A DNA stretch of 64,000 nt, from contig OZ316898.1 in the NCBI GenBank assembly GCA_973895155.1, positions 6,125,079 to 6,189,078 on the forward strand. Reading direction: 5' to 3'. Of this stretch, positions 23,801-54,060 are shown in pieces. Source of the DNA: Marsupella aquatica. Lineage: Eukaryota > Plantae > Marchantiophyta. Position numbers and translations under genes: made by a program. The stretch's first letter is position 1. Every line of letters begins with the position of its first letter. Under the pieces are notes generated by a model. That model saw only the letters and a list, made by a program, of their open reading frames with translations, had not been told where the DNA came from and made no database searches.

Positions 23801-26456
23801 TGCTTCTGCCCTTAAAGAAAATGATTGGTGTGAGGGTATTAATACAATTGAGACTGCTTCAATGCCTGTCATCAAGCTCCGTTGTAGCCCAATTGCAGAG
23901 GGTGTCCCTGCTAGTACGCCCGTAGCTATTGATATCACAATTGGGGGGAAAAGATCTGAGAGTTTTGCAGGGATTCGTCAAATTAGTGTACAAAAGGAAG
24001 GAGGTCCGAGTAAACCAGTGAACCACAGGTTCGAGGCTGCAAGAAATGCCCACAATGGAGCTGCTGCAAGAGAGTTCGTAATCGAGAGACTCAGACAACT
24101 TCCAGCTCTCGCACCTTTGGTAAGTTGGTTTGAAATGCTGCTTCGTTCAGTTTTTTGCTGTTTAGTTTGTCCAATATCTGGTGGCGGCCTAAGTATGTTA
24201 AGGAGGTTTCTCTAATAGACACGTTTTTCTGTTTCAGGTTCTGCTTCTGAAAGCGTTTTTGAGATGCAGAAGTCTTAACGATGTCTATTCTGGAGGGCTT
24301 GGATCATTTGCCTTGACCTTGATGCTTGTTTTCTACCTAGAGGTAATGAAGTTTTCTCGTTTCATATCTTTGAGCAAACCCACATCAGTTTCGGCAAAGT
24401 TTACGATGGGGGCTCCGTGAGTTTTCCTGGAGTCAAGGCGTTGAGTAAGTTGCAATCTTTTGGTTGGGTAGATCTCTATTGAGGTTACTTAATCTTGGCT
24501 TTTTGCCAAGGTTCTGGTCTTAATTGTTGCAAATCAGTGGGTATCAAACTGATGGTCATTTGATCACATCTCCGTTTCTCCAATTGGAAATGTTATTTGA
24601 GCGTGTGGTCGTTAATGTCTCCGTGAAAGTCCTTTGCTTTCCTTGATATAATTCTCCGCTCTATCGTGTACTGATACTTTGAATTCCTGTCTTCAGCGAG
24701 CACCAGTTTCATGCGGCATTCCTCAAGAAATCATTCGTTCATCAACGTCTTCTTCTCCAGCAACTGGTGAGGTTTCTCCTAAAACAAACGTGGAGACCTC
24801 TTTTCATGTAGATGGGGAGACCTCTTCGCAACCGAACAAAGAGACTTCTTCTCAAGTAAATGGCGATGCCTCCTCTCAAACGAATGGGGGAGCTTCTGCA
24901 GCAATTCAGGAGATTCCATCTCCAGTAAGTGGGGAGAACTCTTCTCTAGGAAATGATCTGATTTCTTCCTCAGTGAAAGGGAAGTTTCCTTCCTCCGGGA
25001 AGGGGGAGAGTCCTCCAGCAACCGGAGATATTCTTTCTCCAGTCATTATGGAAATTCCTTCTCCAGCAAACGGAGAGACAAGTGCTTTATCTGTCGACAC
25101 ATCTCAGGCTTCAGGAGCTATGGCAGAGTCAATGGACTTTTCTGACGACGAGTCTTCTGATTCATCTGTTCTGACCAGCACTTCAGCTTCCAGCATGGTA
25201 TCCATGGAAGGGGCATCTCATCATGGGGAAATTGCTCCAGTGCCTATGAATTCCTCAAACGAGGAGCCTCTGCTGAGGAAAGCAGGAGGCATTGTGGAGG
25301 AGTTGCTGACCTCTATGTATTCTGTTGCCTCCCCAAATCTCGGGACGCTGTTGATTGGATTTCTGCAGCACTTTGGCACGGAGATTGATTTCTCTCGAGT
25401 TCGTCTTGTCTTGAAGGTACGGCTACTTTCATGGAAGATATAGCTCATTCCAGATGCCAGCTGTCTGTCCAACCAGTCCGACTAAACTTGTTTGAGCTGG
25501 CCACAATCTATTGTTCTTTATGTTATAGACAAACCAACCTATCACTATTTGTAAGGGTTTGATATAAAATATATGTTTTCCGAGCAGTTGTGCGCAGTGT
25601 TTCTGATGCATATTCTAGAGATATGCGATGAACCATCGTTTGGACAGATGTGCATAGCACTAGTAACAAATGACTCCAGTAAGCGATGGATTGGTTTCAA
25701 TTTAGCCAATTTTTGGTCGTCGTTGTAACGAGAGTTCGATCGAATTCTAGGGAGTCTGAGGAGGAAATGAATTAATGTATGTGACTTGTCTTGTAGGGGA
25801 AAAATGGAAATCCAGGAGGTATGTTCTGGCATGAGAAGAATGCAAGAACTTTACCATTGTGTATTGATGATCCCTTGCGACCAGATGCCGCAATTGGAGC
25901 AGGATCTTTCAACATCTGGCAAGTGCAGGTATGTTAGCATTCAAACCAAATGCATACCGTAGAATTTCCCTAGCACTGTCCTTGTCCACTATCATGTCAT
26001 AGTTGTTGCTAATCAATGTATTTTGACATCCGTTTGGTCAGTCCCAGCATCAGTTTTGCTAGACAATTTTCCAAACGCAAGTCAACATGGCCGATCCTCC
26101 TGGGGACTAGTAAATCATTAGTTGAATATGAACTCCAGATATTCAAAAGAATGAAATGTGGAATATAAACCGAGGCTCTGAGACACGAAAGAATAATTCG
26201 ATTCTAAGGCTTCCGTTGAAAACGCTAGATTTGTATTGTAATCTTGCGTAATGACTTTCTGTGACAGTTTTTTTCTCATCGATGATTTTTGGTCCTGTGA
26301 CAGGCTTCTATGCGTGACATGTATTCTGTAATAGTGAGACCTCAGCCAGTTGGCAGCAACCATCTCTCTGATGGTGAAAGGATTGGAAAGGGCCCTGGAC
26401 GGAGGCGACATGTATCTCTTTTGCAGCAGTTTTTGGTAAATGACATGTACCCTTGA
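17900..26456 (+). CDS. DCD-domain / Trf4-PAPD5-like non-canonical poly(A) polymerase (terminal nucleotidyltransferase) fusion, 10 coding exons, ~1428 aa
   Basis: Exons 17900-18080, 19317-19417, 20418-20519, 20823-20933, 21159-23378, 23658-24119, 24238-24342, 24697-25416, 25797-25928, 26304-26456; all GT-AG and phase-compatible. DCD motifs GGFIFVCNNDTM..RHLFGLP, PGLPLFLYNYS..LHGVFEA..GG.NIEP.AF, SRFPAQVR, FRP.L.HYDG.KFRL.L. NTase motifs LHAEILEF, EVFGSFATGL..SDVDV, IDIT, LLKAFLR.R.LNDVYSGGLGSF, NLGTLLIGFLQHFG, LCIDDPL. The last exon is the least certain. Confidence 0.88.
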
Positions 26457-29162: not shown

Positions 29163-32100
29163 CACTGCTCACTATCATTAGTCTTATGTCACAAATAATG
29201 TTATACTCAATTAATGTTAGTAAGTCTAAATCAAGTGAAGGGGGTATTTTGACAAAAAAATAAGAGTAATTGTGGATCTTTTGTAATTGTAAATAGTATT
29301 TGTGATTTACACTAGGTTATGGTAAAAGTGGACAGGTGCAATTGACATGTCAGTCTGAAAGCTTGCTGACAATAACGTGGACCAATAAAGCCACATGCAT
29401 TGGACAGCTAGTGTGATGGCTGCATGCATCACTAGCTCTCTACGTAATATTTTCTTGGATTTTCCTCACTATAGTAAGATTCTACTCAGAACATAAAATC
29501 TCATTGACTTTTGTTTGAGGCCATGCAAAAACGGGGGCAAAGTTTTGAGTCGCTCCAGATTGTACAGTAGCTCTCTATCCTGACAATGAATTTTCTGTTG
29601 TAAAGCTTTGTCGTGACAAGTCCACATAGGCAACATTTGATTGCAATCCCCTTTGAGAACGCCTGAATTTTCTCAAAATTACAAATCTTGTTGACTTTAT
29701 TTGCCACCATGCAAAAACAGGGCAAAGCTACGGGGGGAATTTGAGCTCACAATGCTCCGATCATTGATGTGATTCAAACATTGACAGATTGGAATGAATT
29801 GTGTGTCAATATAAGGGACTGAAAGATTTGTAACTTGCACATTTCAAATCTGGGAGGTTCCCGTACGTCTTGCTTGCTGATGAAATTATTGATTATTGCA
29901 TGCCCCTTTGAGACTTGTACGTAGCTGAGAATCGAGTTGATCTTTTGATTGATCTGCAAAGGCAATAGATAGAGAGTGTGCTTGTGTATTTTCAATGATT
30001 CACAGTTGGCTTCCTATCATTGAATTAGACCATTTCGAACAGCTGAGGTTGTTGTCAAGCTTTCTTGAGTATTTTTTGCATTTGCAAGAAAGAACGGTCT
30101 GCAACTAAGCTGATCCACGAGGTGAGGTGAGTAGCTTTGGTTTGATTAAAGCTGAATCTTTAGTTTGCTTTCAACTTATTTTCAATCCATTCGATCAATC
30201 AAACATTGAGTTGAAGTGGAACTTGTGTCTGAGTGGCAATTTCTCAATCTTGTGAGCTTGCAGGTCCAGGTGCAGGTCAGGGTACGTGTTCAAGTTAGTT
30301 CAAGCTATTGATCACAGATGGGCTCATATGGCTCTCCCCTTTTAAGTGCATGGAGACATGCAAGGCAGCCCTTGCCTCCAGTTCTGTCCACTGAAGAGGC
30401 TGAACATGGAACCTAAGAGTAGCAAGAGCAAGTCAACCAGCAACCACTATCGATTCAGGCTGAAAGATCTCGTACATTACAACATGTCTGCACTAAGGCC
30501 CAACGAGTGAAGGTCATTAAGTGGATGCAGGCTACAGTTCAATTTAGAGGAGGAGAGGAACGATTGATTGCCACCGATGCAATTAAACAATTTCCAAAGT
30601 GTTTTTGTTCTGCTAGTGCAACTGCAAACATTGTGAAGGCATCACGATGGTGGAAGGAACGGGAAAGTATTCTGGAATCTTTCAAGGTAGACAAGATGTG
30701 TGTGAGCCGATCATTTCGTGATGGGAGGAAACAGACAGAGTTGAAGGCGGGTCCAGGCAGGGGGAGGAAAGCAGCCGCTTGGACTACTTGGTTGTACCCT
30801 ATCGTGAGAGATGAGTTTGAAAGATTAAGGTCTGCAGGCCTGAAATTCTCACCCAAGGTACTCCTTCTAGTTGCTAAAAATGCATTAGTGACAAACAATC
30901 ATCCCACTTTCTTTCCGCAAGCTATCTTGGATGATGATCCAAGATCTCTGACAGATAGAATAACCCCTAGGTGGGTCCAACAGTTCCAAGAGCAAAATAA
31001 CATTGTCCATCGTTCTCAGACCGGTAAACTTATGGTTTCCCCTGCCAAGCAAGAGTTCATAGAGAGAAGAGTAGCTTTCCACATGGGATTTCTTGCACGT
31101 GGTTTTAGATCTGGAATCTTGGATGAGAATGACCAGGAGAATATGGATGAGACTCACTTTTGTGTCAATATGGACAACGGGAAGACATTAGGTTTCAGAG
31201 GAGACAAAAATGTGAAATATGCAGATATTGTTAGTGGAGGAGTTGGAATTACCATGGTAGTAAAAGTCACAGGAGGGGTTCGAGGGAAAATTGGGACCCC
31301 TTTCATGATTTTTCAGAATGATCATTGTTCTTATCCGATTAGGGGAGTTCCTGATAATGTGCCAGGTGTATGCTATCGCTCCACAACATCCTCGTTTATG
31401 ACTTCAAAATGTCTGACAGAATATTACAAGGATGGGAGGGTCAATTGGGCAGATCCTAGTGGACATAGGAAAGTCCAATGGATGGATAACTACCCATGGC
31501 ACAAAATTCTTCCGGATACCAAGACAGCCTTGGAGCACATTAACATGGAGGTGAGAAGATTCCCTGATAATGCTACTCACTTGGTACAACCCTGCGATAG
31601 CTTTGTAATTTCAAAAATCAAAGATTCCTGGACACGAAGGTGGGAGGTGAAGAAAATGGAGCTGATCAGGGATAGTCAATTGCAGGGTGATGGAAGGCAT
31701 GGTACAAGTGGTATGCTCATTAATCCAGGGAAATCTTTTTTCTTGCAATTGGAAGCTGACTCTGTACGTGATGTCAACAGGCAGGTTGACAAACATTACG
31801 GAATAAGTTATGCCAGAAAATCTATGATTAGAACTGGTCTCTCCTTAAATCTCAATGGGCTGTGGGAAGAGGAGCAACTTTCACCAGAATTACAGCAAGT
31901 CATTGAGAAATATCGGTGGAATTTTAACAGAGGGTTGCAAGGTCTGTTAGATATTGATCCACGATTGCCCCTAACATAAATTCCTTTGAATGTTGGAGAA
32001 CCCTCAGCTCAAGAAGACCTTGACAGTGATGAAGTTGATGAGCTTGACAGTGACGAAAATGAGGACTCCCTGCTATTGTCTCACGAACCTGAACCACTTG

Positions 32101-33853: not shown

Positions 33854-34137
33854 GGGGGTTTCACTTCCACAAAAATGGCACGTCACGTGCAACGAAGGAT
33901 AGGTAAGGGTCGTTTTATTGGTTCAAAGGGAAGACTTAAGAATTTTTGCAAAAAAACAATAGGGTCTTTTAAATCCAATTTTGAGACTTATAAGAATAAT
34001 AGAGTTATTGTAATCAAAATTTTGGAATATATTCCAACTTTATAGGAGTTAAAAATAAATAAATTTCCTTACATTTTAGGGGGTCCGAGCCTAAAAACGT
34101 CGCAGGTGATGGGGAGGCCTCCATATAGTGAGACCCC
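33854..34137 (-). mobile_element. MITE family A, copy 1
   Basis: TIRs gggggtttcact...agtgagacccc; body is the reverse complement of 35371-35625. Confidence 0.7.
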
Positions 34138-35370
34138 TGAGGGGTATATTAGATGTTGAGTAGCATGGTAACCATCAGACCTGATATATTGGAGTGTAAT
34201 GATTGTATGTGTTGAATGCATATTCTGATCTCTCTTTGTTCCCGCATTTGTCCCTGGGGAATCACTTTGTTGGATTATTAGAATGGGGTGCGAACAAATG
34301 AAGGCTATTTTTAATCTTGTTGGGGTAATCATTATAAGCAAAAATTTATACTAAAGGCATTTAAAAATCCAATTTGGTAAAAATATATATTTTATATTCA
34401 GCAAGGTATTTAAGAATTTGTCAAAGCTGTATAATAAAGGGTACAAGGGGATTTTAATTGAATTATTTTTTCAAATTTCATTGGTTTGTTCTCAGGTGTT
34501 TTAGTGGTTTTACTCTACTTAAATGATTCCCCAGGGGCATTCGTTCCTCATGTTCGTTCAAAGATTGATACCTCAAAGATACAAGTTTTGTATTTACAAA
34601 CTGACAACTAGTACATCTTCATTTCTTTGCTCTTTCTCAGGCCTCTTTCCAGGTGGAGGCAAATGGCCATCAATGACCCAAGTCATTTTCATTCAAAGAC
34701 CAAATTGAGGATGGTTCAGCTTGGAATAAATTTATGGCGTGAGTAAAGAGATTTGTAGTGGAGCTGAAGGAGGCTGAGATGAGTGGAGTGTCTGGTGGTC
34801 TTCTATGTGGGCATTCTAATTAGATCATGGACACCTCTTTCAACTTTGAGGAGCTTACTTAGGGTCATCTACTTTATACCAATGGCAACTGATCCATTTT
34901 ATCTAAAACCCCTCTTGATGCTCAGTCTGTGTTATTTTTCTCTAGGCTGTAAATTGGCTACTGTCCTTGGCTGTCTTACTCAATGTACCTGCTGGCCAAG
35001 TCATGCTTCTATGGATTTGTCCTAGCTAGCTTGATTCAGGATTCTTTGCCAATCTCTACTCTCTTTTTTTCTTTTTAAAAGGGGAAATCCGTGAAACTCT
35101 AAGGATAGGGAGGCAACAGAAGCCAATTACAAAATATGAAGTGGGCTACCACTCAGCCATGCATGCTTGCTTTGGCATCTGCTGCAATCTTTCTTAATTG
35201 CAACTCCAACTTTCTCTCTCTAGAATTGCCCTTGTGCTATGCTATACCTCATCAACATTGCTTCCCAAGTATTATGTGTAGGTTTCTTCCTCCCCTTGCA
35301 TTTTTGTTTTTCCATTCAGCTACTGAAATTTAGTCTTTCAATTTTCCGTCAAAGACTTGGGGGCGGGCTT

Positions 35371-35625
35371 GGGGGTCTCACTATATGGAAGTCTCCCCAT
35401 CACCTGCGATGTTTTTTAGGTCTCAAACCCCCTAAAATGTAAGAAAAAATTATTTTGTAACCCCTAAAAAAATTTGATTGAAAGACCCTAATGTTATAAG
35501 TCTCAAAATTGGATTTAAAGATTATTGTTCTTCGAAGAAGGTTCTGAAGTTTTTCTTTAGAACCAATAAAATGACCTTATTCTTAGTTACAACTGATGTG
35601 ACATTTATGTATAAGTGAAAACCCC
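35371..35625 (+). mobile_element. MITE family A, copy 2
   Basis: TIRs gggggtctcact...agtgaaaacccc; shares ccccatcacctgcga, taagtctcaaaattggatttaaa and accaataaaatgacc with copies 1 and 3. Confidence 0.7.
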
Positions 35626-37164: not shown

Positions 37165-37442
37165 CGACCAAACTGTTATGACTACGTAAGATCCATGGTG
37201 TAAAAATACAGCAAACATGAGACATTCAGTACTGGCTAGTCAGTCGCAGACCACAACACAGAACAACACTAAAGGAAAGTGAATCGACACATATCACGGT
37301 GAAGAAATCTGGACACTAAGCAAACTGATTTGTCCGGAGACGAAATTACAACAGTTACCTTTCTTGGGAAACCACGCCTGAAAACCAGACCTGCGTAAGT
37401 ATCTGGCTCTGAGTTTCAAGTATGAAAAACCCTTCAAATATT
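37165..37442. repeat. Left arm of an old long inverted repeat (right arm = ~39192-39314 + ~45049-45220, split by the copia)
   Basis: Reverse complement aligns by eye: tttgaagggtttt..cttgaaactcagagccaga..tttcagg..tggtttcccaa..cagtttg|ctta.tgtccagatt..tcgattcactttccttt. Confidence 0.75.
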
Positions 37443-37535
37443 AATAGTATGAAACCGCGCCTGAAAAGCAGACCTGCGTAAGTATCTAGCTCTGAGTTTC
37501 AAGTATGAAAAACCCTTCAAATATTAATAGTATGA
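37368..37535. repeat. 83-bp tandem duplication
   Basis: gaaacc(a/g)cgcctgaaaa..agacctgcgtaagtatct..aacccttcaaatattaatagtat occurs twice. Confidence 0.88.
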
Positions 37536-39314
37536 GTATAATACATGAGTTAGAACGGTTTCTCCATCGTTCGACGGGAGCTACAACGAATGAAATCGTT
37601 GCTTTACAGTACATTCTATAGATTACTATTGGAGCAAACCTCCTCCGTTTCGCCAAAGACGCTAACTTCGGGGCTAACTTCCGTTTCTCTGCAGCCTCTC
37701 GTTATGATGTCGTTATGATCTCCCTCTCCTTCTTCCCCCCACTCCGAACGTTCTGGAATTTTCACTCTTTTTGCTTCTGTTTTTGCGAAGCCAAGAGATA
37801 TACAGGGATAGTATCGCTTCTTTTCTACTTCACGATAGTGTGATTGGATTGTGATTGAGCTCCCCCCAGCTGGAAAGAGGTTAATTTGGGCAGGGGCACG
37901 CGAGAATTCATGGTCCTGATTGGCTATTTATCTTCCGTTCATGATTGGACCGGGGATTGGACCAGTTGAAACTGGAATGGAGCTGGTGGTACAGACCGGT
38001 CTATAGTGCATCGACTCGATCGAAATGAAATTCTCCACCTGTAGAGTAAAACACACGCCATCACAAATCATCAAGTTGAAGCTGTTCACCAATTGATTGC
38101 ATTGTTCCTCTTGCAGTTCCATCTAGCCGGGCTGGTATGTATGGTTCTCCTGCAAAGAGATGGTCCAAGGATGGTGACAGGCAAGTCTGCAATGCTTCAT
38201 TTCCATATTCAGGGACTTTCCTTTGCTGTTTCGCACCATCCCGAACTCTATCCGCCAATTGAAATGAAGACCCAGGATACGCGGAGTGTGCTTCTATTTC
38301 GCCAAAAGGAAAATCCGATCTACGTGGAGTGTGTTCGCTTTTTGCTGAAGGAAGATCCTGACTGCAAGGACAGCGTGTCTCTTTTCTACTTGAGGATACT
38401 GTGTTTCTTTTGAAGTTTCAGTTTCACAGGAGGCAGCCAGGTGCGTCCTCAAGTGATGGACGGCGGCTTCTTTCAAATATAGTGCAGTTCTGACTCAGAA
38501 CTTCAAGAGATCGAACCCATACGTTCCCGAGGAGGCTTGAGTGTCTGATCACACGTCGAGTTGCTGTGATCAAATTGAGAGTCCAGAAGTGATTCAGAAA
38601 CTCGAGGGAAAGTGAGCTCGACTGTTCGTGAGGAGGCCTGCATATTACACCTCAAGAAGTGATCACAAATTGTGAAGTCCACAACAATGCCGACGTTAAG
38701 GGAACTGTGTGCACTGCGTGAGCTCGAACGTACACTTACAATGATGCAGGTAGTGCCTATTCTCGAGAGGGACAAGCCTCCGAGACCTGAAAAGAGGGCG
38801 CGTAGAGTGCCTCAGGGAAGTATTGATGGCCCAATACCGACCGGGAGACCGACTCCACTCCAAGACGTGGCACAGGGTTTAGGGGGCATGACATCTCTAC
38901 ATCTTCGAGACACAACCATACAACTGTCGGGAGCTGAAGAAAAAGTGGAAGCGAAGAGCAACCCTTTGTACTGTGGGTCGCTCGGCATTGTGGTGGAAAA
39001 ACATGGTCCAAACGACATCAAAATTTGAGAGCGGTCGATGCCGTGAATTGGATCGATCTGCTATTGATGTCTGTAGTCTGTAGTCGGGTCAAATGCCCTT
39101 GTAGTGTAAAGCAACTATTTCATCCAATGTTGCTCCTGTCGAAAGGCTGAGAAACTGTTGTAACACATGTACTTTTCTCATCATTCTTTATAAAATTTGA
39201 AGGGTTTTCCCATTCTTGAAACTCAGAGCCAGAAAGTTGAGTGGCTCTGTTTTTCAGGGATGGTTTCCCAAAAAGGATAAATCTTGTAATTTTGTCTCGG
39301 GAGAAAGCAGTTTG

Positions 39315-39602
39315 TGTTGGAGTTCTATTGTCGTTAGGACATTACGCCCACCTTCTCTTGCTCTGATTAGTGCATAAATATAGGAGTAATTACTAGCCGT
39401 ATATGACACTGCCGTCATTGCTTTAGTAGTATGGGACAAGGTCTGAGTTGGCCCTTGTCACGTTGCATTGACCTTGTGTGTGATAGACCTTATTTTCAGG
39501 AGCTTATCTCCGCTTGGACCCATGCGGGCTGTGTGCCCGTCTCTCTCATGTATTTATCTCCCTCTCCTCTGTGAGATTATCAAGTTGTTTAAAACTTCAA
39601 CA
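39315..39602 (+). repeat. 5' LTR
   Basis: TG...CA; about 99% identical to 44756-45043. Confidence 0.96.
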
Positions 39603-39614
39603 TGGTATCAGAGC
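39603..39614 (+). promoter_or_regulatory. Primer-binding site (initiator tRNA-Met)
   Basis: TGGTATCAGAGC immediately after the 5' LTR. Confidence 0.93.
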
Positions 39615-39646
39615 CATAATCTAATACCTAGTAGAAGCCAGTCACC

Positions 39647-42600
39647 ATGTCTTCTGATGTTACCAAAATCTCATTCCTCGAGAGTGACAAGCTAGTGGGT
39701 GCTGCGAACTACATGGTTTGGGCATTCCTGGTAGAACAGATCCTTCGTGAGAAAGGTCTATGGGAAATCGTTCGACCTCTGATTGTTCAGGTAACTTCTC
39801 AGACATCACAGGCTGGCTCTGCTGCTGCCAACGTAGGTGGTACACCTCAGGCCGGTGCAAGCTCGTCTAGCACCTCAGGCAGCAGCGGATCTGGATCTCA
39901 ACCAGTCTCTCAGGCTCCAAGCCAGAAAGACAAAGTAAGTGCTCCAATTGTTCCAATCGTCATGCGTCTACGTGAAGATCCCGCGAAGCTGTGGGTCACA
40001 CTCAAGAAAAAATACGAATCTGCAGCTCTCTCACGTAAGCTTGCTCTCAAGACTGCTCTTTCTGCATCAAAAATGAAAGAAGGGACCTCTGTTCAGGAAT
40101 ACCTACACAGCATTGAACGCCAGGTTGCTCAGCTCGGCTGCGTAGGAGAGTCAGTCCCTGATAAGGAACTAATCACGATTGTGCTCAGGAATTTGCCCGA
40201 CAGTTGGTATAACTTCGTTGCTGTCTACGGAGTCATGTTTTCAAAGGAAACCCCAGATGCTAGTTTTGCAGACCTGGAGGAATACTTGCAGGCGGAAGAT
40301 GCACGCCGAAGAGCTCGCTCGGAAGAGCACTCATTCACTGCTACAGCATACGAACGACGGCCTATTCAGACTACTAGATACACTTGTGGAAGGGGTCGAG
40401 GACGCAGCACCCGTGGGCGACACCAACACGTACCTGACAGGCGCATCGAACCATGCAGCCACTGTGGAAGACGAGGGCACTTTGAGTCAGATTGCTTTAT
40501 TAAGCATGCCGACACAGGGATGCGGTCCCTGACAGTCTCCCAGCAACGAGAAATCACTCAGCGCATCAAAGATCTCCAAGCAGACAGCTCCAAGGCATAT
40601 GCAGCTGAAGAAGAACCTGATGACGGCGAATACCTTACAGGCTCAGATAGTGAGAACAAATCTGGTCTCACTATGGAGGCTATGCTCAGCGAATTTGAAC
40701 CGCGAGAATCCAAGCGTCAAACCTGGATCCTGGATAGCGGCGCATCTACTCATATGAGTCATGATGTGAAAAACTTTTCTACCATTAAAGGCAATTCTTC
40801 CACCTCCAATGTTGTTACCGCCAGCGGCACCAAAATGCCAGTGTCTGGATCAGGATGTATTCCTATTTCTCGCAATAAAACAATTTCTGATGTTTTGTAC
40901 ATCCCGAGTATCACTAGAAATCTACTATCTATCGGCAAACTTGCCGATCAGGGTCATTCTGTACTGTTCGACTCTAAGTGCTGTTACATAATGGACAATC
41001 GTAGTCCTAAATTAGTTCTTCTCAGAGGATACCGTGATCCAGCCAATAAGCTATACAAGCTTACTGTTCCCAACATTTTGCCAGACACTAGTCTCCGACG
41101 CACTTCTGTGCTACCACACCCCAACATCACCGCTCAGTGTCAGCTAGTCGAAGGTCCCCACTCGGTGGCACAACGGTGGCATCAACGACTGGGGCACTCC
41201 AACTACCAGCGTCTCAGCCACATGACAAAGCATGGACTTGTTCTTGGAGTTCCACACCTATCATCGTCGAAGGATATCTGTGAAATTTGTGTCAAAGGCA
41301 AACAAACTCGAAACCGTATTCCAAAAGCAGCAATTCACCGTGCAACTCGACCACTGCAGCTAGTTCATACGGACCTCTGCGGTCCACTCCCTACTTCCTC
41401 CTTGTTTGGTTCCAGGTATTTCATTACGTTCACCGATGATTATTCCCGGTACTCCTGGGTCTACTTCCTCCAGTACAAAAGTGAAGCCCTGGAAAAATTT
41501 AAGTTCTTCAAAACTCAGACCGAGACAGCACTGCGTTGCAAAATTGCTTGTCTTCGGAGCGACCGAGGGGGAGAATATGTGTCTGCTCTATTCACCCAAT
41601 TTTGTCAAGACAACGGCATCAGGCGACAACTCACGGTCGCCAAAACTCCTCATCAAAATGGTGTCTCAGAAAGGAAAAACCGTACCCTTCTAGACATGGT
41701 GCGTAGTATGTCCATTGGATCTAATGCTCCAGAATTTCTTTGGGAAGAGTACGTTCGGGCTGCAAACTTCATCAACAACAGGTGCAGCACTCGTGCTCTA
41801 AATCTGGCTACTCCATTTGAATGTATAACCAGAAACAAACCAAACGTAGGGCATTTTCGAGTGATAGGTTGTACTGCTTACATTCATGTTCCCAAAGATA
41901 TGCGGAATAAACTAGAAGAAAAATCTATCAAGACAGTTCTTGTTGGCTACGATGATCAAAGCAAGGCCTATAGATGCTTTGATCCCACAACTCGAAAAAT
42001 CATCATCTCTAGAGATGTAATATTTGACGAAGGTACGCTAGGAGATTTCTTGTCTCCATCTACTTCTACACAAGAAACACTCTTTGATCTATTTTCTGAT
42101 GACGATCACATGGAGACACAGTCCCAACCTGACACATCAGTTCCAACCACTTACCCTCTTGATGACTTTCTCGATCAAGAGGCCGTGACTCAAGCACCCA
42201 GGGATCCCGATCCAAGCTCCCCCGGAGAACTCACGACACCAATTATCGCTTCATTACCAGAGGATCAACCTCCACCGTCAGTACCGAGGCAAGTTCGCAG
42301 AGCTCGTCAAAGACTTCTTCAACGCACCAGGCCTTCCTCAGGGAGACTTACTTCCCATCCATACAAATACTCTGATTTTCACGTGACTTATTCTGCTGAA
42401 GAGATAGAGTTTTGTACAGCACTATTGGCAAATTCTGCTACAGACGTTCAGCTTCAACAGGCACTATCAGATCCTCTCTGGCTTGCTGCCATGCAAACCG
42501 AGATGAACGCTCATGACAAGAATCACACATGGGATCTTGTACCTCTTCCCTTCGGGGAGAAAGCACTATCTGCTCGATGGGTCCTTCGGGAAAAAATTGA

Positions 42601-44057
42601 CCATGCAAGCAACAACAAGCTTAAAGCCAGAGTCGTGGCTAGAGGGAATGAGCAACGAGAAGGGATTGACTACGAAGAAACCTTTGCGCCAGTGGTAAAG
42701 TGGTCCACTGTTCGACTGATCGTAGCTCTCGCTGCCACCTTTGGTTGGAGCTTAACTCACATGGATGTTGTTACAGCCTTCTTAAATGGAACTCTAAAAG
42801 AGACCATTTTTATGCACCAGCCACCGGGTTTCTCCAAGATTGGTCAAGAAGACTTGGTTTGCAAGCTTCGTAAGTCGATATACGGGCTCAAACAAAGTCC
42901 ACGTGCGTGGTATGAGGAAGTAGATTCCTTCCTGAGGTCCATTGGATGTAGGCGCAGTGCTCTTGATCCCAACTTATACTTGAAGCAGGAAAACGGTAAA
43001 ACGGCCCTTATCCTTCTATTTGTTGATGACTTGCTAATCACTGGAGATGGCTCCGACCTGATTACTGATTTACAGCTGCAGCTCAAATCTAAGTACGAGA
43101 TGAAGGACCTGGGAACTGTCAAAACGCTACCTTGGAATTGACTTCGTCACCACCAACCAAGGCATATTGCTTCATCAAAAGCCCTATGCAGATCAACTTG
43201 TACTCGACTACGGCATGGATAATTGCCGACCCATAAGCACTCCACTGCCCGAAGGACTGGAACTCTCCTCCGAGACCCACACTCCCAGTGTAGACGTTAC
43301 CACTTACTGCCAACTGGTAGGCAAGCTCATTTATCTCACAAATACTCGGCCAGATATTTCATTTTCTGTTGGTCTAGTCAGTCGATTTATGACACATCCT
43401 CAGCAAGCACACTTTGATGCTGCTATGCATATTGTTCGATACATTAGCAGTACAACCGACCTGGGCATATTCTATAGACGTGGAGCATCACTACAACTCC
43501 ATGGATTTACCGACTCCGACTGGGGGAACTCCTGCCCCGACACAAGAAGATCCACTGGAGGATACGTCTACAAATTGGCAGACGGCCCAATAACTTGGAG
43601 CAGCAAACGGCAACCAACGGTATCTCGATCTACCACCGAAGCTGAATACAAGGCATTATCTGATGGTGCCCAAGAAGGAGTCTACCTTAAACGTCTAATA
43701 CAGGAACTGCAGCAAGTCAACATCCCTGCATCTATCCTCAAGTGCACCAGCCTGCAAATCGCCACCGACCTCAGCGAAGCATTAATGCCTACTCAACAAG
43801 ACCTTCACCTTCACTGCGATAACATGAGTGCCATTAAGCTTGCAAAAAATCCAGTATTTCATGCACGCACTAAACACTTGGAAATTCACCATCACTTTGT
43901 TCGGGAGAGAGTTCTAGAGGGGGAATTATCAGTTCGACACATCAAGTCTGAAGATCAGACAGCAGACATCTTCACAAAAGTCCTTACTCGGCACAAATTT
44001 GAGAGAAATAGAGCACAACTAGGTATGAAATCTGTGATGCAACTGCAATCACTTTGA
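39647..44057 (+). CDS. Copia gag-pol polyprotein with a single +1 frameshift near 43121-43124
   Basis: Zn knuckle CSHCGRRGHFESDC; protease WILDSGAS; GAG-pre-integrase WHQRLGH..CEIC; integrase HTDLCGP, RSDRGGEY, NGVSERKNRTL; RT KARVVARG, YGLKQSPRAW, FVDDLL; RNase H TDSDWG, CDN, ADIFTK. One extra A in gtcAAAAcgc breaks DLGTVKRYLGIDF. Confidence 0.93.
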
Positions 44058-44142
44058 TCCTTGTTCTTATAACGGTGAATACATCGTAATCAGTTTCCCA
44101 TACAATAGAGTAAGGAGTCCTACTCAACTAGTCTGCTACACC

Positions 44143-44601
44143 TCAACGAAGTCTAACACTTTCGCGGACTAGATAAATCTCTGCCTCCTGACGTGACCGA
44201 AAGGATTTAAATCGGTTTCCTCTAAAACCGCTTACTAGTGGCTCCACTTCTTCCCATGTAGTGTATATCCCAGGACGACGCCCCCGAGCAATGGCATAGT
44301 AACGACGAGGCAGCTCTATGCTGCTCCTCACCACATCGTCTGCATATGCTCGAACCATGTTATACTCACTGCCTCCACTGGAGACTGGTACTCCCAGTGC
44401 TACAGGACCGATTGGTCTCTCATCGACTTCACTCACGTGACCATCTGTTGCATCAAGCGTTGCTGCGTCTGCAGTAGGTCCTCTCTGTCGACCTCGGTGC
44501 AATACATCACGCAGCATTCGTGCAAAGGAGGCAATGAAGTCCAACATTGCCAACAGCAGTACCAGTCCCGACTCACGTAGTGTCATGGCGTTCTGATCCA
44601 T
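44143..44601 (-). CDS. Antisense accessory ORF (152 aa from first ATG) with a C-terminal RNase H1 N-terminal hybrid-binding / caulimovirus viroplasmin (Cauli_VI) domain
   Basis: YYAIARGRRPGIYTTWEEVEPLVSGFRGNRFKSFRSRQEAEIYL (44170-44304) fits the HBD pattern YAVxxGRxxGIYxxWxEC/VxxxVxGFxxxxFKxFxxxxEAxxY; hydrophobic N-terminal segment GLVLLLAMLDFIASFA; lies between the pol stop and the PPT. Confidence 0.85.
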   Translation of the reverse strand: MDQNAMTLRESGLVLLLAMLDFIASFARMLRDVLHRGRQRGPTADAATLDATDGHVSEVDERPIGPVALGVPVSSGGSEYNMVRAYADDVVRSSIELPRRYYAIARGRRPGIYTTWEEVEPLVSGFRGNRFKSFRSRQEAEIYLVRESVRLR

Positions 44602-44746
44602 CACGATCTCTAACTCTTCGGATCTCACGTTCTTGTTGCATGACACTCACCTTGGCTTCCGCTCCAGTCATAGACCTACCTGATATATGTTCGTTCACAT
44701 CTTACGTGTCTCTGATCAGATTGTCTCATCTGAGTAAGATGTGGTC

Positions 44747-44755
44747 GAGAGGGGG
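44747..44755 (+). promoter_or_regulatory. Polypurine tract
   Basis: GAGAGGGGG directly before the 3' LTR. Confidence 0.9.
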
Positions 44756-45043
44756 TGTTGGAGTTCTATTGTCGTTAGGACATTACGCCCACCTTCTCTT
44801 GCTCTGATTAGTGCATAAATATAGGAGTAATTACTAGCCGTATATGACACTGCCGTCATTGCTTTAGTAGTATAGGACAAAGTCTGAGTTGGCCCTTGTC
44901 ACGTTGCATTGACCTTGTGTGTGATAGACCTTATTTTCAGGAGCTTATCTCCGCTTGGACCCATGCGGGCTGTGTGCCCGTCTCTCTCATGTATTTATCT
45001 CCCTCTCCTCTGTGAGATTATCAAGTTGTTTACAACTTCAACA
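44756..45043 (+). repeat. 3' LTR
   Basis: TG...CA followed by TSD GTTTG. Confidence 0.96.
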
Positions 45044-45294
45044 GTTTGCTTACTGTCCAGATTGTCTTCGGTGTGCTGTTATCGATTCACTTTCCTTTTT
45101 TGCAGCCTCTACAGCTTTGTGATTGTTTTGTGTTGCGGTTTTGAACAGACGGAATGTTTTGATGTGTGTGCAATCTTTTTACAACATGGATGTTTCCTTA
45201 ATTGTAAAGGTTTGGTCTTTCAGCCACATCACTCAGCATAATTGGCACTGTCTAGTACCTGTACACTTCCCTTGACATACAGTTGGAGATAATA

Positions 45295-48853: not shown

Positions 48854-51800
48854 TCAATAATCGAGCTCTGCCTGCTGCTTGGCTGCCTGTGCAGTCCAGT
48901 ATGAATGTGCACGTGTAACACGCTCCAGTAGCTCCTGCGGGACTGGCTCCCCCCTTCGCTGGTGTGGTGCTATTCGAGCTGTGTGTACCAATGTCTTCCA
49001 TTTGTCCTGTCACATCCAGTTATCTTTATTACTCTTTGCATGCCTTGATTAAAATGACATAAGACATGACTTCACACGATGTAGAGATGTAGCAACAAAA
49101 CAAGCTGACACTAGCGCGACCACCTGTTCACTTGGCATGCAGAATCCACAATCACCAGGCACAAGTCTTAACTCCCTACATAGTTTACGACCCCCGTCCC
49201 CGTAACAACAACCAATTCGGAGATGATCTGGACGTCATCGGTTATGTACCAAACACTTAATGAAAGAAAGCCAAGTCCCAAAGATACCTTCAGATCAACA
49301 TAAGTTCGGTGCTTTGCTTGATCAAATGCTCGCAATTTTACATCACGCCATCTGGAAGGAATCCAAATGGAGATCAGGAAAGAAACACAAAGATGCAATG
49401 CAATTCAGGGAATTAGCAGGTACTACGAGAATGCTGTTAAATTAACTCGCTTGAAGAGAAAATATTTGCACTGATCGTCATTCCTTCATTCAGCACCTAC
49501 TTTAAAGTGACAGTTTCAGGAACCCATTGACAGAGTGCTGTCCTCTCCAGGTACAGTTCCCAACAAGTCAAGCTTTAGAGATTCACCTGCCAGTTCCGAG
49601 CTTCTCCACAGCATGCACGAGGGCTTCCACCTCTGCAACAGTGAAAGGTCGGCGGACACGACGCTTTCCTACATCCAGGGAATGAGGTTTTTGCCTTACG
49701 GGCACGAGTGCTAGGCCCTGCATGTTTTCGCCTACATTCGTGCCTGGGTGAAGAATGATAGCCCCGGAACTTGGAACTAGTGATTCATGAGCTACAGGAT
49801 GAAGTATAGGGGCAGCGAGCTCAGACTCGTTCTTTGATACTCGACGACTAGCATCAGCTTGTGCTCTGATGGCTGCCAAAGCACCAGCTGCAGCAACCCT
49901 TGTTGAGTGTGGAGAGAGGGTGGTTCGATCACTCACGCCTGGCTTGGGTTTGTTTGCAGGGCATCCCTTTGTTCCATCGTCCTGAGAAACTGAAAAGCCC
50001 AAACCCACACGCTTTCCTTCAATGAAATCGCCAGAGAGAGGTGTTCCATATCCCTCAGTATCTACACTTCCTCCATTTCCCTTACCGGGGCGTTTCTTTG
50101 GACAGCGACTTCCCAGTTCCCCACCATTTGGGGCTGCAGTAGCGCCATATACAGGAAAGCTGTACAAAATAAAATGAATAATTAATCCAAAAAGTCTATA
50201 TGACACCTCCAAGATATCAACTTTCTGATCCTCCCAAGAATACTATTCTACAATGTGGGACCACCATTACTTCCAATTTCCCCTAACGACGAAAGCTTTT
50301 CCTGTCCAGCATACTCCATAACAAATTTCAAAACTCAACTTCAGTGTTAGGATGCGTGCCTACGGGCGGCAAAAATTTAGAAGAGTAACAAGTGGTCTCC
50401 AGCATTTTGCATCAGATGATTGTAAAGGGAATAAACCACACCTTGATCTCAACTGGAATAGTTCTTACCGTGGAGAAGGCTGACCAGCAGCACGCGAAAG
50501 CACAAGGAGGGGGTCCTCAGATGTCGACGTAGGTGACGAAGGCACAGGACTTGGCTCCAGCATAAAACCAAGTGAATCGGGCTTGCCAGCGCGCGAAATG
50601 CCCACTTGAGCTAAGGTTGCACCTTCGTCAGGAACTTTTTTGCCTTGCAAGAGCACGCGGACTCTCAAGCCCCCTCCCAAAAGATTCATGGCCGCATCCA
50701 TCACTGCTCGCTGATTCAATTTAACAAGAGTCTTAGATAAAGAACGCTCAAAATTGTGAACTGCCAGCGAAGTTCAAAGACTCACGATCAGCAGCTTGAT
50801 GGTACCTTTCCAGATGAGGCTACTGGAAATATCCACGAAACACAAAATAGTTGTAACAACTTAAAAACAACAGACTAGAACAGTTATGCGAATCACATCC
50901 CGAAACAAGAGAGTCCATGTCACGCACCTTCAGGTTTGAGATAGTGGCGGATTCAGGTAGGTCAACAGACAGCTCAGGAACTGTGAAAGATTTGATGGTA
51001 AGCTTGACTGCAACGGAGGAAACAGCCAATGTCATTTTGCGGACCCAAACTGTGGACAGGATGACGATGACTTCCATGAAGAAAAAAATCGGAAAGATGA
51101 GAGGTCGATGAGGTACCATGAGACTCTCCACCCTTCTTCGACAGTTTTGCAGTACAACCTCTCGCAGTAGGTGACGAGGCAACACTAGCGGCTTTGGCTG
51201 CAGAACATAACAAAAGTACAGATTATCAATTCCCTGTCATTTTGCTGCAATCAGGAACACCAAATTGCGAAGACAACAGTGGTTTTGAATGTCGAGGATT
51301 AAGTCTACCATGCTTGATGCTCCTGGCACAAAAAAAGTACTTTGCCCCTCTCTTCTCACTGTAAGCCCTTTTCTCCAGAAACCGCTTGCCCCACCAAACT
51401 TGTAAGAATGGAAAACATCTTCTACTCCGGATCTATGGATCGAAACTTTTTTCCATCTTGCGATAAACCTTTACACAATAACTTCCTACTAGTGCATTGT
51501 TTGTTTACATCTAGCAGGACCAACCAATCTGCTATAGTAGAAAGTACGGTGGGCAGTGAAAACTGTTTAATTTACTTCTATGCGAGCAGAGTCAAGGTTA
51601 TGAAAGAATATAATTATTACCACTCCGGAGTTTAGCTGCAGCTGCAGGGGGCTCACCCCCCGCACATTCGAACCCAAGATCCATGAGATTGGTGGTATTC
51701 ACATGCAGGTCAGGACCAGGATTTGACAAACCGTCTGAACTCTTATTTCGTTTGGCTGGGAATCCTCGTGACGTTCGCTGACGTGTGTACGATAGACCTC

Positions 51801-54060
51801 CATAGTAAGCTTTCTTAGTGAGCCCCTCATCTGAATTGTACAGCAAGCGCCGGTGTTCAGTTTTCTGGTTCTTTCCTACGCTAACTTCAAGTAACCAAAA
51901 CATTGCCAAACCCAAAAGCCCAGCCCAAAAGCCAACAATGGCGAAAGTATTGACAAGGGCTCAGCATACTACCAAATGGTCAGAATTCGTGCAAGAAGTG
52001 ATAGAAAGCAACCGCGACCTACTGTGATCGATACCTCACACACAATTCAGGTGACATGCGGCCTCTACGGCATAATGGAAAGTGTACTACTATTAAACAG
52101 ATTTTACAATGCACAGGCCACAATTTCAGCGCGAACGTTTTAATGCTCAACACTTGTCAGCTGACAGAAGGCATTGACTATTGACTCGTTCTGGTGGGAG
52201 ACCGAAATCGGAGTACCTGAATCACCTCCTGCCTCCATTTCTGCATGCTTTCTCTTGGATCGAGAGCTTGACACACGACTGCGTTTCACCATCTTCACAA
52301 CTTTTCTTGCTCTCATGCCCTTTGCGTACGACTCCTTCGACTTCTTTGATAATTTGCCTGAAAACATCTGCTTTGAAGAGCCACATTTGCGATCTTTAGA
52401 GGATATTCGGTCCCTTAAATTTCCTAGTATCAGGTCGGACAAGAACCCACATCCTGCCTCAACATCGTTCGACTCCAGCTTCCCCAATATCACATCAGTG
52501 ACTTTCAGCAATTTCTTGGTATCAACCTGGCTCTTATCATCAACTTCAAGACCTGAGTCTCCTTCGTCCTCCTTCCCGTAGAATTCTCGACTCTTCCACG
52601 GCTTCACGTCTTCATCAGACCTGCGCTGGTCTGAGATTTGAACTTTCCCATTCAAGTCCATTATTATCGTTTCATCCTCTTTGAGGAGCTTACTGTGTGG
52701 ATGGGTGACTTCTTCCGATGAAGGTTCTGCTTTCGTAACATCTGAAACTGTGCTTGACACGGGGTCCTGAGCTGTACAATCGAAATTTAAGCTATATTTG
52801 ACAGAGGCCTTCGGAAGATCAATTTCCATGTCAGCGGTGTGTTCAGTCCCTCTGATTCCCGATACAACCTCCTTTTCGTCATCATGCTCTTTGCTATTCC
52901 CCAACATTTCAGCTTTGGGATTGGGTAAACTATCAATGGTTTCATCAGAATCTACATGCATTTTATGAAACCCTGCGGGATGTTTCATAGCATTGGAAAT
53001 ACTGGAATCGGGATCAGACTTAATGGTGTGGTTTTCGTCATTGTCAGAAACAGATGATGTCATCATCTGCTTTTCCATTTCGCATACCTGCGGCGCCGGA
53101 TTGACGGCTGCTTCGCAACCAGTCTCCATATTTAATTTCAATTCGGTTTCAGGTGGAGCATTGGAACACTCCCCTGACGGGGCCCGAGATAAGAATGCTT
53201 TGTTGACTACACTATGAACAGAATCAGCGCCTATATCATCATTCTTTGTTTGTTCATGAAGAAGATTCTTCTCCTCATGATCTTTAATGGCTTCACCGAG
53301 AGACTGGAGGCAAGAAGCAAGTGTAGATGATGGCTCACGCTGCAGTTTTTCAGCCCGGGCTGCCCGTACAGGTAATTCGGGCTCTTTTACATGCGATTCC
53401 ATCATGTCTGAAGATTTCTGCTTGAAAGTACTTCTCTCGGACAGCTTGAGAATCTCTTGCTCCTCTCCGGCGCTATCCTCCTGTAGAATCTGCCCAGCGA
53501 CTGTTGCAAGCAGCTCGAAAAAACCAGAGCGTCCTCCATAACCAGATGTCCGCGTCGTGGACTGCCCCCTCCCCTGAATTGAATCAATGCATGATTTGTG
53601 AGAGGAATTAAGACAACATATGCACTGCATGGACGCTCACCGGGTCCCAAAGGAAATATCAACGACCATCAACGACAAGAGAATTTGCAATCATTCGTCA
53701 ATTACAATCTAGCACTTGAGAAATCTGGGATGCAAGACGATCTGGGCACGTTGTTCCGCCGGCCTTGGGTCTTAGCAATTAACTTCATGGTCTCCACTGA
53801 GGTCGTTCAACTATTGCTAGTGAATGTCAATTTCCAGCCATCGAGGAAGCGAGATCGGCTTCCCGACAGATCTTCACCACGACTTAAATCTGGCTAAAGC
53901 ACGAAAGGAAGCCTAGCTCAAGGGCAACAACCTGAATTGGGTATTTTGAGCATGGAGAAAAGCCCAAGGACCATACCCTGGAAGAACGCATAGCTCGAGG
54001 TAGTGCTGGGCCATTGTATCCTGGAAACCCACCCCCAACTCGTCGACTTCGTGCCTCCAT
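48854..54060 (-). CDS. Telomere repeat-binding protein, TRFL/TRP family (ubiquitin-like domain + C-terminal telobox Myb + Myb extension), 9 coding exons, ~947 aa
   Basis: Exons (minus) 54060-53977, 53573-52217, 51830-51621, 51197-51117, 51007-50928, 50710-50469, 50159-49587, 49351-49288, 49006-48854; all GT-AG and in phase. Motifs GFPGYNGPALPRAMRSSR, FELLATVAGQIL, VKLTIKSFTVPEL, GGGLRVRVLLQGKKV..LGFMLEP, RRVRRPFTVAEVEALVHAVEKLGTGRWRDVK..HRTYVDLKDKWKTLVH, RRGEPVPQELLERV..YW. Confidence 0.93.

What the first reader, a model, noticed from the sequence alone, without database searches (positions are those of the whole stretch)
44143..44646. Copia retrotransposon carrying an antisense gene for an RNA:DNA-hybrid/dsRNA-binding (RNase H1 HBD / caulimovirus P6-like) protein
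Seen in sequence: between the pol stop (44057) and the PPT, the minus strand holds an intact ORF that converges on pol and starts ~150 bp from the 3' LTR. It has a hydrophobic N-terminal helix, a linker and a complete C-terminal HBD retaining the Tyr, Trp and Phe-Lys residues. Established: this domain binds RNA:DNA hybrids and dsRNA in eukaryotic RNase H1 and lies within CaMV P6/TAV, a translational transactivator and silencing suppressor; extra 3' ORFs are known in Sireviruses (sense, env-like) and Tat/Retand gypsy elements (antisense), but I know of no HBD-only antisense ORF in copia. Inference: a transposon-encoded accessory factor, possibly driven by antisense activity of the 3' LTR. It could shield dsRNA or RT intermediates from Dicer or host RNase H1 (anti-silencing), aid reverse transcription in trans, or target R-loops. 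This is the best candidate for an undescribed system in the window.
Basis: partly seen in the sequence, partly recalled or inferred. Interest (0 to 1): 0.9.

Follow-up and report, generated by a model that had tools for sequence, protein, structure and literature searches.

The report
Copia antisense hybrid-binding accessory gene
A recently inserted plant jumping gene carries, on its opposite strand, an intact extra gene whose protein has only the RNA:DNA-gripping module of RNase H1 on a long tether, and since similar intact genes occur in a liverwort and several other assemblies, it is likely a helper that would shield the element's own copying intermediates.

Summary
Observation confirmed. 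A young Ty1/copia element (39315-45043; 288-bp LTRs differing at 3 sites, 5-bp TSD, empty site in two other runs) holds an intact antisense ORF between pol and the PPT. The gene starts at ATG 44601 (152 aa), not 44646. It encodes a hydrophobic helix, a disordered linker and an RNase H1 hybrid-binding domain (PF01693, E 2e-18), with no nuclease. It is not lone debris: seven more proteins share the whole layout and start position (one from the liverwort Calypogeia fissa). Their HBDs are 55-84% identical and their linkers 9-18%, and the family's HBDs form one clade. That points to selection on the protein. Best mechanism, inferred: a tethered, non-cutting grip on the element's own RNA:DNA or dsRNA intermediates. 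The P6 argument for anti-silencing is weak: P6's matching motif is reported dispensable for RNAi suppression. One of three known binding residues (K60) is lost family-wide. Expression and binding are untested. Antisense 3' ORFs are known in gypsy; I found no report of an HBD one in any LTR element. New variant of a known kind.

The parts
39310..39314 (+). Left target-site duplication (5 bp)
   Evidence: Identical to 45044-45048; contigs of runs X2 and X3 join 39307 to 45042, i.e. the empty site
39315..39602 (+). 5' LTR, 288 bp, TG...CA
   Evidence: 3 differences from the 3' LTR
39603..39615 (+). Primer-binding site of the full-length tRNA-Met type (assignment recalled)
   Evidence: Directly after the 5' LTR
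39647..43141 (+). gag-pol part 1: Gag, zinc knuckle, protease, integrase, RT; ends after a frameshift
   Evidence: Pfam Retrotran_gag_2, Pol_BBD, gag_pre-integrs, rve, SH3_retrovirus, RVT_2 in copia order
43104..44057 (+). pol part 2: end of RT and RNase H, with a clade-specific insertion of about 24 aa
   Evidence: Open frame; EY-to-CDN spacing 55 versus the usual 31 aa; one clade, SH-aLRT 99, with the insertion columns dropped; D100, E144, D202, D251 invariant in 21 aligned rows (their catalytic role is recalled)
44143..44601 (-). Antisense accessory ORF, 152 aa (helix - linker - HBD)
44485..44580 (-). N-terminal hydrophobic helix (residues 8-39): membrane anchor or docking helix, role untested
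   Evidence: AlphaFold helix 8-39, pLDDT 95-96 over residues 11-30; best 19-residue hydropathy 1.95; conserved in 7 relatives
44320..44481 (-). Acidic, likely disordered linker (residues 41-94)
   Evidence: pLDDT under 50; 9-18% identity among full-length relatives
44161..44304 (-). Hybrid-binding domain (residues 100-147)
   Evidence: PF01693 E 2e-18; 1qhk and 3bsu best by sequence and by fold
44747..44755 (+). Polypurine tract
   Evidence: Directly before the 3' LTR
44756..45043 (+). 3' LTR, 288 bp
45044..45048 (+). Right target-site duplication

Best explanation
The element carries an intact antisense gene for a helix-linker-HBD protein with no nuclease, which is likely a selected accessory factor of one bryophyte-associated copia clade and is predicted to act as a tethered, non-cutting grip that would hold and shield the element's own RNA:DNA (and dsRNA) intermediates. 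Shown: intact ORF inside a young element; HBD fold and W/F/K contact residues; a family with the same layout and start position. Inferred: (1) a short antisense mRNA is made from a promoter in or near the 3' LTR; (2) the N-terminal helix fixes the protein to a membrane, or to itself or Gag/Pol, where the element replicates; (3) the 58-90-residue linker lets the HBD reach duplexes, as the HBD-linker of RNase H1 does; (4) bound hybrids are kept from host RNase H1 and other nucleases, and may be handed to the element's own RNase H. My odds: functional gene about 0.9; copia-borne across the clade about 0.7; HBD binds duplex nucleic acid about 0.8; this particular job about 0.45 overall.
For: Intact ORF, 3 of 1000 shuffles; PF01693. 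Of the 150 best hits among 5024, 7 match over nearly the whole length (P0002, P0134, P0147, P0166, P0170, P0172, P0219) and 3 over the C-terminal part. Identity to the window: helix 19-58%, linker 9-18%, HBD 51-84% for 8 full-length relatives. All 12 family or near-family proteins scanned have PF01693 as their only Pfam family. Twelve HBDs form one starred clade (97/86) in a tree of 75 of 169 HBD segments. W43 equivalent kept in 11 of 12 and K59 in 9 of 12; these residues are the human binding surface (PMC6846478 passages). Link to copia: the only named member of the family and the nearest named member of the pol clade are both Calypogeia fissa. P0002 and P0134 lie on Logan contigs of 5467 and 5180 bp, close to this element's LTR spacing (5441) and internal length (5153). 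P0296 (HBD family) and P0012 (pol of the same clade) each lie on one contig of exactly 3974 bp. A run holding the empty site also has a contig over 44056-44412 with 3 substitutions and no gap (X2), so another copy or allele keeps the HBD part. 0 of 80 out-of-clade copia loci carry an HBD, so it is not a general copia feature.
Against: No relative's DNA context was read, so the copia link is indirect. The 3974 match is post hoc: any exact match among 27 x 13 lengths arose in 11% of jittered draws, one of 2500 bp or more in 0.8%. The two C. fissa proteins share a chromosome length but lie 173 accessions apart, so they are not neighbours. P0296's helix scores only 1.0 bit against the helix profile. 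K60 is Ser or Ala in 12 of 12, and K60A cuts human HBD affinity nearly 10-fold. One X2 contig shows single-base insertions at 44532 and 44619; the first would shift the ORF unless an unlisted gap compensates (35 gap rows were not shown). This copy's pol is frameshifted, so the intact ORF here may only reflect youth. Copia reverse transcription happens inside particles (established knowledge), which a membrane-anchored protein would not enter. In P6 the same motif is a protein-binding site.
Confidence: 0.45

Rival explanations
1. Anti-silencing factor: the protein binds dsRNA (including the duplex its own antisense mRNA would form with the genomic RNA) and keeps it from Dicer or RDR pathways, perhaps at membrane-linked silencing bodies.
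For: The 40-aa motif binds both hybrids and dsRNA in vitro (PMC5902531 passage citing Cerritelli 1998). The ORF is antisense to the genomic RNA. Antisense transcripts can give dsRNA (PMC7264820).
Against: P6's dsR motif is reported dispensable for RNAi suppression; P6 silencing suppression maps to residues 80-110 (PMC5670102 passages). Single HBD lacking K60.
Confidence: 0.18
2. P6-like protein adaptor: the HBD binds TOR or ribosomal proteins, as P6 dsR does, and the membrane-anchored protein boosts translation of gag-pol or blocks autophagy of particles.
For: dsR binds TOR, eL18 and eL13. The top viral fold hits are caulimovirid TAV proteins (best E 2.3e-3). The helix has membrane-anchor hydropathy (1.9-2.1 in 7 of 8 core proteins).
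Against: Only the 45-aa domain is shared with P6. The TAV hits are below the E 0.001 bar. gag-pol is one ORF type and needs no reinitiation. The HBD tree holds no labelled caulimovirid row, so kinship was not tested.
Confidence: 0.1
3. Self-limiting regulator: the antisense protein clamps the element's own hybrids and slows reverse transcription, limiting copy number.
For: An HBD without nuclease can act as a competitor of RNase H (established knowledge, recalled). Antisense aORFs are proposed to be regulatory (PMC7264820). Uses the same anatomy as the best explanation.
Against: No data on direction of effect. The element is recently mobile.
Confidence: 0.1
4. A host gene family (helix-linker-HBD) of liverworts or other bryophytes that this one copia family captured recently; the conservation reflects the host genes and the copy in the element is a passenger.
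For: No relative's flanks were read. P0170 is an annotated C. fissa gene not adjacent to the pol hit P0019. Possible frameshift in one X2 contig.
Against: Contig sizes of 5467 and 5180 bp and the shared 3974-bp length. The linker drifts faster than is usual for a single host orthologue (inference). Transduced genes are usually in sense orientation (PMC7264820). The ORF fills most of the pol-PPT gap with its start position intact.
Confidence: 0.13
5. Dead fragment of a host or microbial RNase H1 gene, kept only because the insertion is young.
For: Young element (3 LTR differences) with a broken pol.
Against: Seven diverged full-length relatives with conserved helix, start position and HBD and no RNase H domain. 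The HBD lies at the C-terminus, whereas in RNase H1 it lies at the N-terminus.
Confidence: 0.04

Closest known systems
Antisense 3' additional ORFs (aORF-3R / eORF-3'R) of Tat, Retand and Ogre gypsy elements (Grande gene23, RIRE2, Retand TRP28, PvRetro13)
   Same: Same place and orientation: between pol and the 3' LTR, antisense; proposed accessory role; Grande gene23 has its own antisense promoter (PMC7264820).
   Different: Here the carrier is Ty1/copia, where REXdb lists 3' antisense ORFs only for 1% of SIRE (250-codon cut-off, which would miss this one). Known cargo is TRP28, PMD, SMC or DUFs, not PF01693. Much shorter region (0.7 kb versus 2.9-6.6 kb in Retand).
Hybrid-binding domain of RNase H1 (human 3BSU, yeast 1QHK; PF01693)
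   Same: Sequence and fold; Y29, W43, F58, K59 equivalents kept; a flexible linker next to it.
   Different: No RNase H domain; the HBD is C-terminal, tethered to a hydrophobic helix; K60 replaced by Ser or Ala throughout the family.
Caulimovirus P6/TAV (dsR motif)
   Same: An HBD in a separate accessory gene of a plant reverse-transcribing element, without nuclease.
   Different: P6 is about 520 aa, sense, multi-domain. Here only the HBD is shared. In P6 the motif binds TOR and ribosomal proteins and is dispensable for RNAi suppression.
Stand-alone HBD genes in fungal DNA transposons (Pleurotus Helitron capE; KDZ/Kyakuja cargo in earlier AI notes)
   Same: PF01693-only cargo gene inside a mobile element (PMC4289320). 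The nearest Atlas clusters are PF01693 proteins of 175-241 aa, mostly Basidiomycota.
   Different: DNA transposons of fungi, not a plant LTR retrotransposon. No kinship with this family was shown.
Archaeal-type RNase H (aRH) captured by Tat elements
   Same: An LTR element gaining an extra RNase H-related module (PMC4408406 passages).
   Different: aRH is a catalytic domain inside the gypsy polyprotein; this is the binding module only, in a separate antisense gene.

Membership tests
Ty1/copia LTR retrotransposon | LTRs with TG...CA ends, TSD, PBS, PPT | tested here: met
Ty1/copia LTR retrotransposon | Domain order Gag-PR-INT-RT-RH | tested here: met
   for Gag to RT; RNase H part by homology; frame broken once in RT
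Bryco lineage (REXdb) | PBS complementary to half-molecule tRNA-Met | tested here: not met
   PBS is the full 3'-end type (assignment recalled); Bryco is 100% half-tRNA-Met
Any named REXdb copia lineage | Clusters with reference RT/RH/INT sequences | not testable with these tools
   Reference FASTA too large to read; the element falls in an RNH-insertion clade of 29 rows apart from 22 mostly angiosperm rows
Conserved antisense aORF (aORF-3R) | Between pol and 3' LTR, antisense | tested here: met
Conserved antisense aORF (aORF-3R) | Present and intact in most copies of the family | tested here: inconclusive
   One X2 contig gap-free over the HBD part, another with two single-base insertions; no genome held
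Conserved antisense aORF (aORF-3R) | Transcribed in antisense from its own promoter | not testable with these tools
   No RNA data could be laid on it; only weak TATA-like words upstream
RNase H1 hybrid-binding domain (PF01693) | Pfam score above cut-off over the whole model | tested here: met
   66.8 bits versus 21; positions 1-43 of 44
RNase H1 hybrid-binding domain (PF01693) | Three-strand, two-helix fold | tested here: met
   Model E101-106, E111-113, H116-123, E130-134, H137-151; top rows 3bsu (prob 0.99) and 1qhk (Z 4.3, rmsd 2.3, 47 aligned)
RNase H1 hybrid-binding domain (PF01693) | Binding residues W43, K59, K60 | tested here: inconclusive
   W116 and K132 kept, K60 equivalent is Ser133
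RNase H1 hybrid-binding domain (PF01693) | Binds RNA:DNA hybrid or dsRNA | not testable with these tools
   Needs a binding assay
RNase H1 enzyme | Catalytic RNase H domain in the same chain | tested here: not met
   PF01693 is the only Pfam family in the ORF and in 12 of 12 relatives scanned
Caulimovirus P6/TAV | About 500-aa multi-domain transactivator with similarity beyond dsR | tested here: not met
   152 aa; the only Pfam domain is the HBD; the family is 103-251 aa

The most novel reading that the evidence does not exclude
A whole bryophyte copia clade runs a two-piece RNase H1: the antisense protein docks by its conserved helix on the clade-specific insertion in the element's RNase H and supplies the missing substrate-binding handle in trans. 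With caulimovirus P6 and fungal transposon HBD genes, this would make nuclease-free HBD capture a repeated strategy of selfish elements for controlling RNA:DNA hybrids.
Probability: 0.15. Interest if true: 0.85.

Novelty: new variant of a known kind. Interest (0 to 1): 0.62.

Why it matters
The function and origin of antisense ORFs in plant LTR retrotransposons is a stated open question, and most encode no recognisable domain (PMC7264820). This one has a solved fold with known binding residues, so it can be tested directly with point mutants. It also shows that copia elements can carry antisense accessory genes that a 250-codon survey would miss. If it shields hybrids, it names host RNase H1 as a pressure on plant retrotransposons and gives a transposon-encoded counter to it.

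Tried and rejected
No whole genome is held for this window, so copy number, ORF retention and dN/dS among siblings are open. Sequencing runs: 4 holders in 2 studies, no RNA holder listed; this says nothing about expression. DNA around family members: nothing confirmed in viral contigs or metagenome contigs with the ORF. Adjacency of the C. fissa ORF and pol proteins: not adjacent. Origin of the HBD: unresolved; 50 columns, unstarred sister group of mixed multi-HBD proteins, no labelled plant RNase H1 or P6 rows. P0292 is a doubtful member (long branch outside the clade) and was left out of the family counts. The N-terminal helix has no Pfam hit and only generic helix matches; that shows neither novelty nor absence. 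No complex model could be obtained, so docking of the helix on RNase H is untested. A spliced 5' exon through the donor-like site at 44651 was considered and set aside: the intron would be 57 nt and purine-rich, and the unspliced start aligns with relatives. Literature: 10 full-text searches found no report of an HBD ORF in an LTR retrotransposon; the library lacks most subscription papers, and REXdb Additional files 1 and 3 could not be read and may bear on this. Earlier scan notes: none for this sequence, this genome or copia antisense ORFs.

Full report
The element. The finding lies in a Ty1/copia retrotransposon at 39315-45043. Its LTRs are 288 bp, differ at 3 positions, and are flanked by a 5-bp duplication; a PBS follows the 5' LTR and a PPT (44747-44755) precedes the 3' LTR. 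Pfam gives Gag, protease, integrase and RT in copia order. pol is split by a frameshift in RT. Run X1 matches the window there without difference, while contigs of X2, X3 and X4 differ by a one-base gap at that place, so the break looks real and recent. Contigs of X2 and X3 join the two flanks, so the empty site exists and the insertion is polymorphic. The host is probably a bryophyte: the nearest named relative of both the RNase H and the ORF is the liverwort Calypogeia fissa. That is inference, not identification.

The ORF. The minus strand is open from 44646 to 44143; the first ATG is 44601 (152 aa). It starts 155 bp from the 3' LTR and ends 86 bp from the pol stop. An ORF this long arose in 3 of 1000 shuffles of the gap. 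Residues 100-142 match PF01693 at E 2e-18; yeast and human RNase H1 HBDs are the best solved relatives by sequence and by fold. AlphaFold with 9 sequences gives a confident helix (8-39), a disordered linker (41-94) and the HBD. Human W43, K59 and K60 form the binding surface (PMC6846478 passages). Here W116 and K132 are kept, and K60 is Ser133.

A family, not debris. The word search found 1 relative among 97 candidates, P0002, 48% identical over 95%. The profile search over 1.84 billion representatives gave 5024 hits; of the 150 listed, 7 match nearly the whole length, 3 match the C-terminal part, and the other 140 are proteins with two or more HBD matches, which may crowd out further members. 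A third search added P0278 (cluster mate P0296) and the doubtful P0292 among 23 hits. For 8 full-length relatives, identity to the window is 19-58% in the helix, 9-18% in the linker and 51-84% in the HBD. The window's Met1 aligns with a Met in 7 of 7 core relatives. All 12 proteins scanned have PF01693 alone. In a tree of 75 of 169 HBD segments (11 family, 2 candidates, 17, 45 drawn at random), 12 family HBDs form one starred clade (97/86); P0292 falls outside. W43 is kept in 11 of 12, K59 in 9 of 12, K60 in 0 of 12. Two conserved ends, a fixed start and a drifting linker of 58-90 residues are what selection on a protein gives. dN/dS could not be computed.

Is the family copia-borne? Directly shown only for this copy. 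The element's RNase H has an insertion of about 24 aa shared by 28 of 120 listed hits; with the window they form one clade (SH-aLRT 99, insertion columns dropped, 51 rows) that includes C. fissa P0019. Indirect links: P0002 and P0134 lie on contigs of 5467 and 5180 bp, near the 5441-bp LTR spacing and 5153-bp internal part; P0296 and the clade's pol protein P0012 each lie on a single 3974-bp contig. That match is post hoc: 11% of jittered draws give some exact match, 0.8% one of 2500 bp or more. Against: the two C. fissa proteins are 173 accessions apart, and P0296's helix is not a significant match to the helix profile. Among close copies, X2 has a gap-free contig over 44056-44412 with 3 substitutions although it holds the empty site, a contig with single-base insertions at 44532 and 44619 that may break the ORF, and a weak joint (27 letters) from the pol end into the HBD. 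None of 80 out-of-clade copia loci has an HBD. I put a clade-wide copia location at about 0.7.

How it likely works. The layout is RNase H1 with the nuclease replaced by an anchor: HBD, long linker, hydrophobic helix. The helix reaches a 19-residue hydropathy of 1.9-2.1 in 7 of 8 core proteins (1.09 in P0134), enough for a membrane anchor, but it could also be a docking or self-association helix. The simplest use to a retroelement is to grip its own RNA:DNA intermediates without cutting them, keeping host RNase H1 away and perhaps serving its own RNase H, whose four acidic residues are invariant in 21 aligned rows (catalytic role recalled). A viral protein shielding hybrids from RNase H1 has been reported for influenza NS1 (bioRxiv 10.64898/2026.05.04.722684, abstract only); this is an analogy, not evidence. 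All these steps are inferred (0.45). Anti-silencing is possible but the P6 precedent does not support it: the P6 motif binds hybrids and dsRNA in vitro, yet is dispensable for RNAi suppression and binds TOR, eL18 and eL13 (PMC5902531 passages).

What is known. Antisense 3' ORFs are described for Grande, RIRE2, Retand and PvRetro13, with unknown function and origin (PMC7264820, parts 1-2 of 3 read); Retand ORFs mostly carry TRP28 (PMC11963269 passages). REXdb counted eORFs of 250 codons or more; its eORF domain table has no PF01693 and 3' antisense ORFs are listed for copia only in 1% of SIRE (PMC6317226 passages and Additional files 4 and 5; files 1 and 3 unreadable). A PF01693 cargo gene is reported in a Pleurotus Helitron (PMC4289320 passages), and earlier AI notes describe such genes in fungal KDZ transposons (unchecked). 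Passages of bioRxiv 10.1101/572842, PMC4408406, PMC5670102, PMC13182070 and PMC12885004 were also seen; none describes this case. Ten searches found no HBD ORF in an LTR element.

Verdict. Real feature, probably a selected accessory gene: a new variant of the antisense aORF kind, in an unusual carrier and with a testable domain. Interest 0.62.

Noticed in passing
window 43704-43805 (+), residues 164-197 of the 43215-44057 frame: The element's RNase H has an insertion of about 24 aa (EY-to-CDN spacing 55 versus 31 aa), shared by 28 of 120 hits that form one clade with C. fissa P0019; it may mark an unclassified bryophyte copia lineage.
   Followed up: partly
window 37271-37613 versus 39100-39314 and 45049-45098: The copia landed inside the right arm of a roughly 2.1-kb inverted-repeat DNA element; the repeat continues across the insertion. 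A 113-aa ORF without Pfam hit lies inside it (38687-39028).
   Followed up: partly
window 44641-44690 (-): Upstream of the ORF lie two out-of-frame ATGs (44671, 44641) in one short frame overlapping the start, a consensus-like splice donor at 44651 and a TATA-like word at 44687; they could tune translation of the antisense gene.
   Followed up: partly
window 6895-12077 (-): Helitron Rep/helicase gene (Helitron_like_N and PIF1), with an upstream open frame at 10719-12077.
   Followed up: partly
window 30423-31979 (+): DDE_1 (pogo/Tc1-like) transposase frame of 518 codons.
   Followed up: partly
window 33908-35576: Nested inverted-repeat arms enclosing about 1.7 kb, probably a non-autonomous DNA transposon.
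   Followed up: no
window 21123-25443 (+): Exons of a host nucleotidyltransferase (MTPAP-like / NTP_transf_2 hit at 23655-24212).
   Followed up: partly
window 49583-53636 (-): Exon-like frames that resemble a telomere-repeat-binding Myb protein (resemblance recalled; no Pfam hit for the one frame scanned).
   Followed up: no
P0278 / P0296 (Logan proteins): These family members have a C-terminal extension with a CxxC word after the HBD.
   Followed up: no
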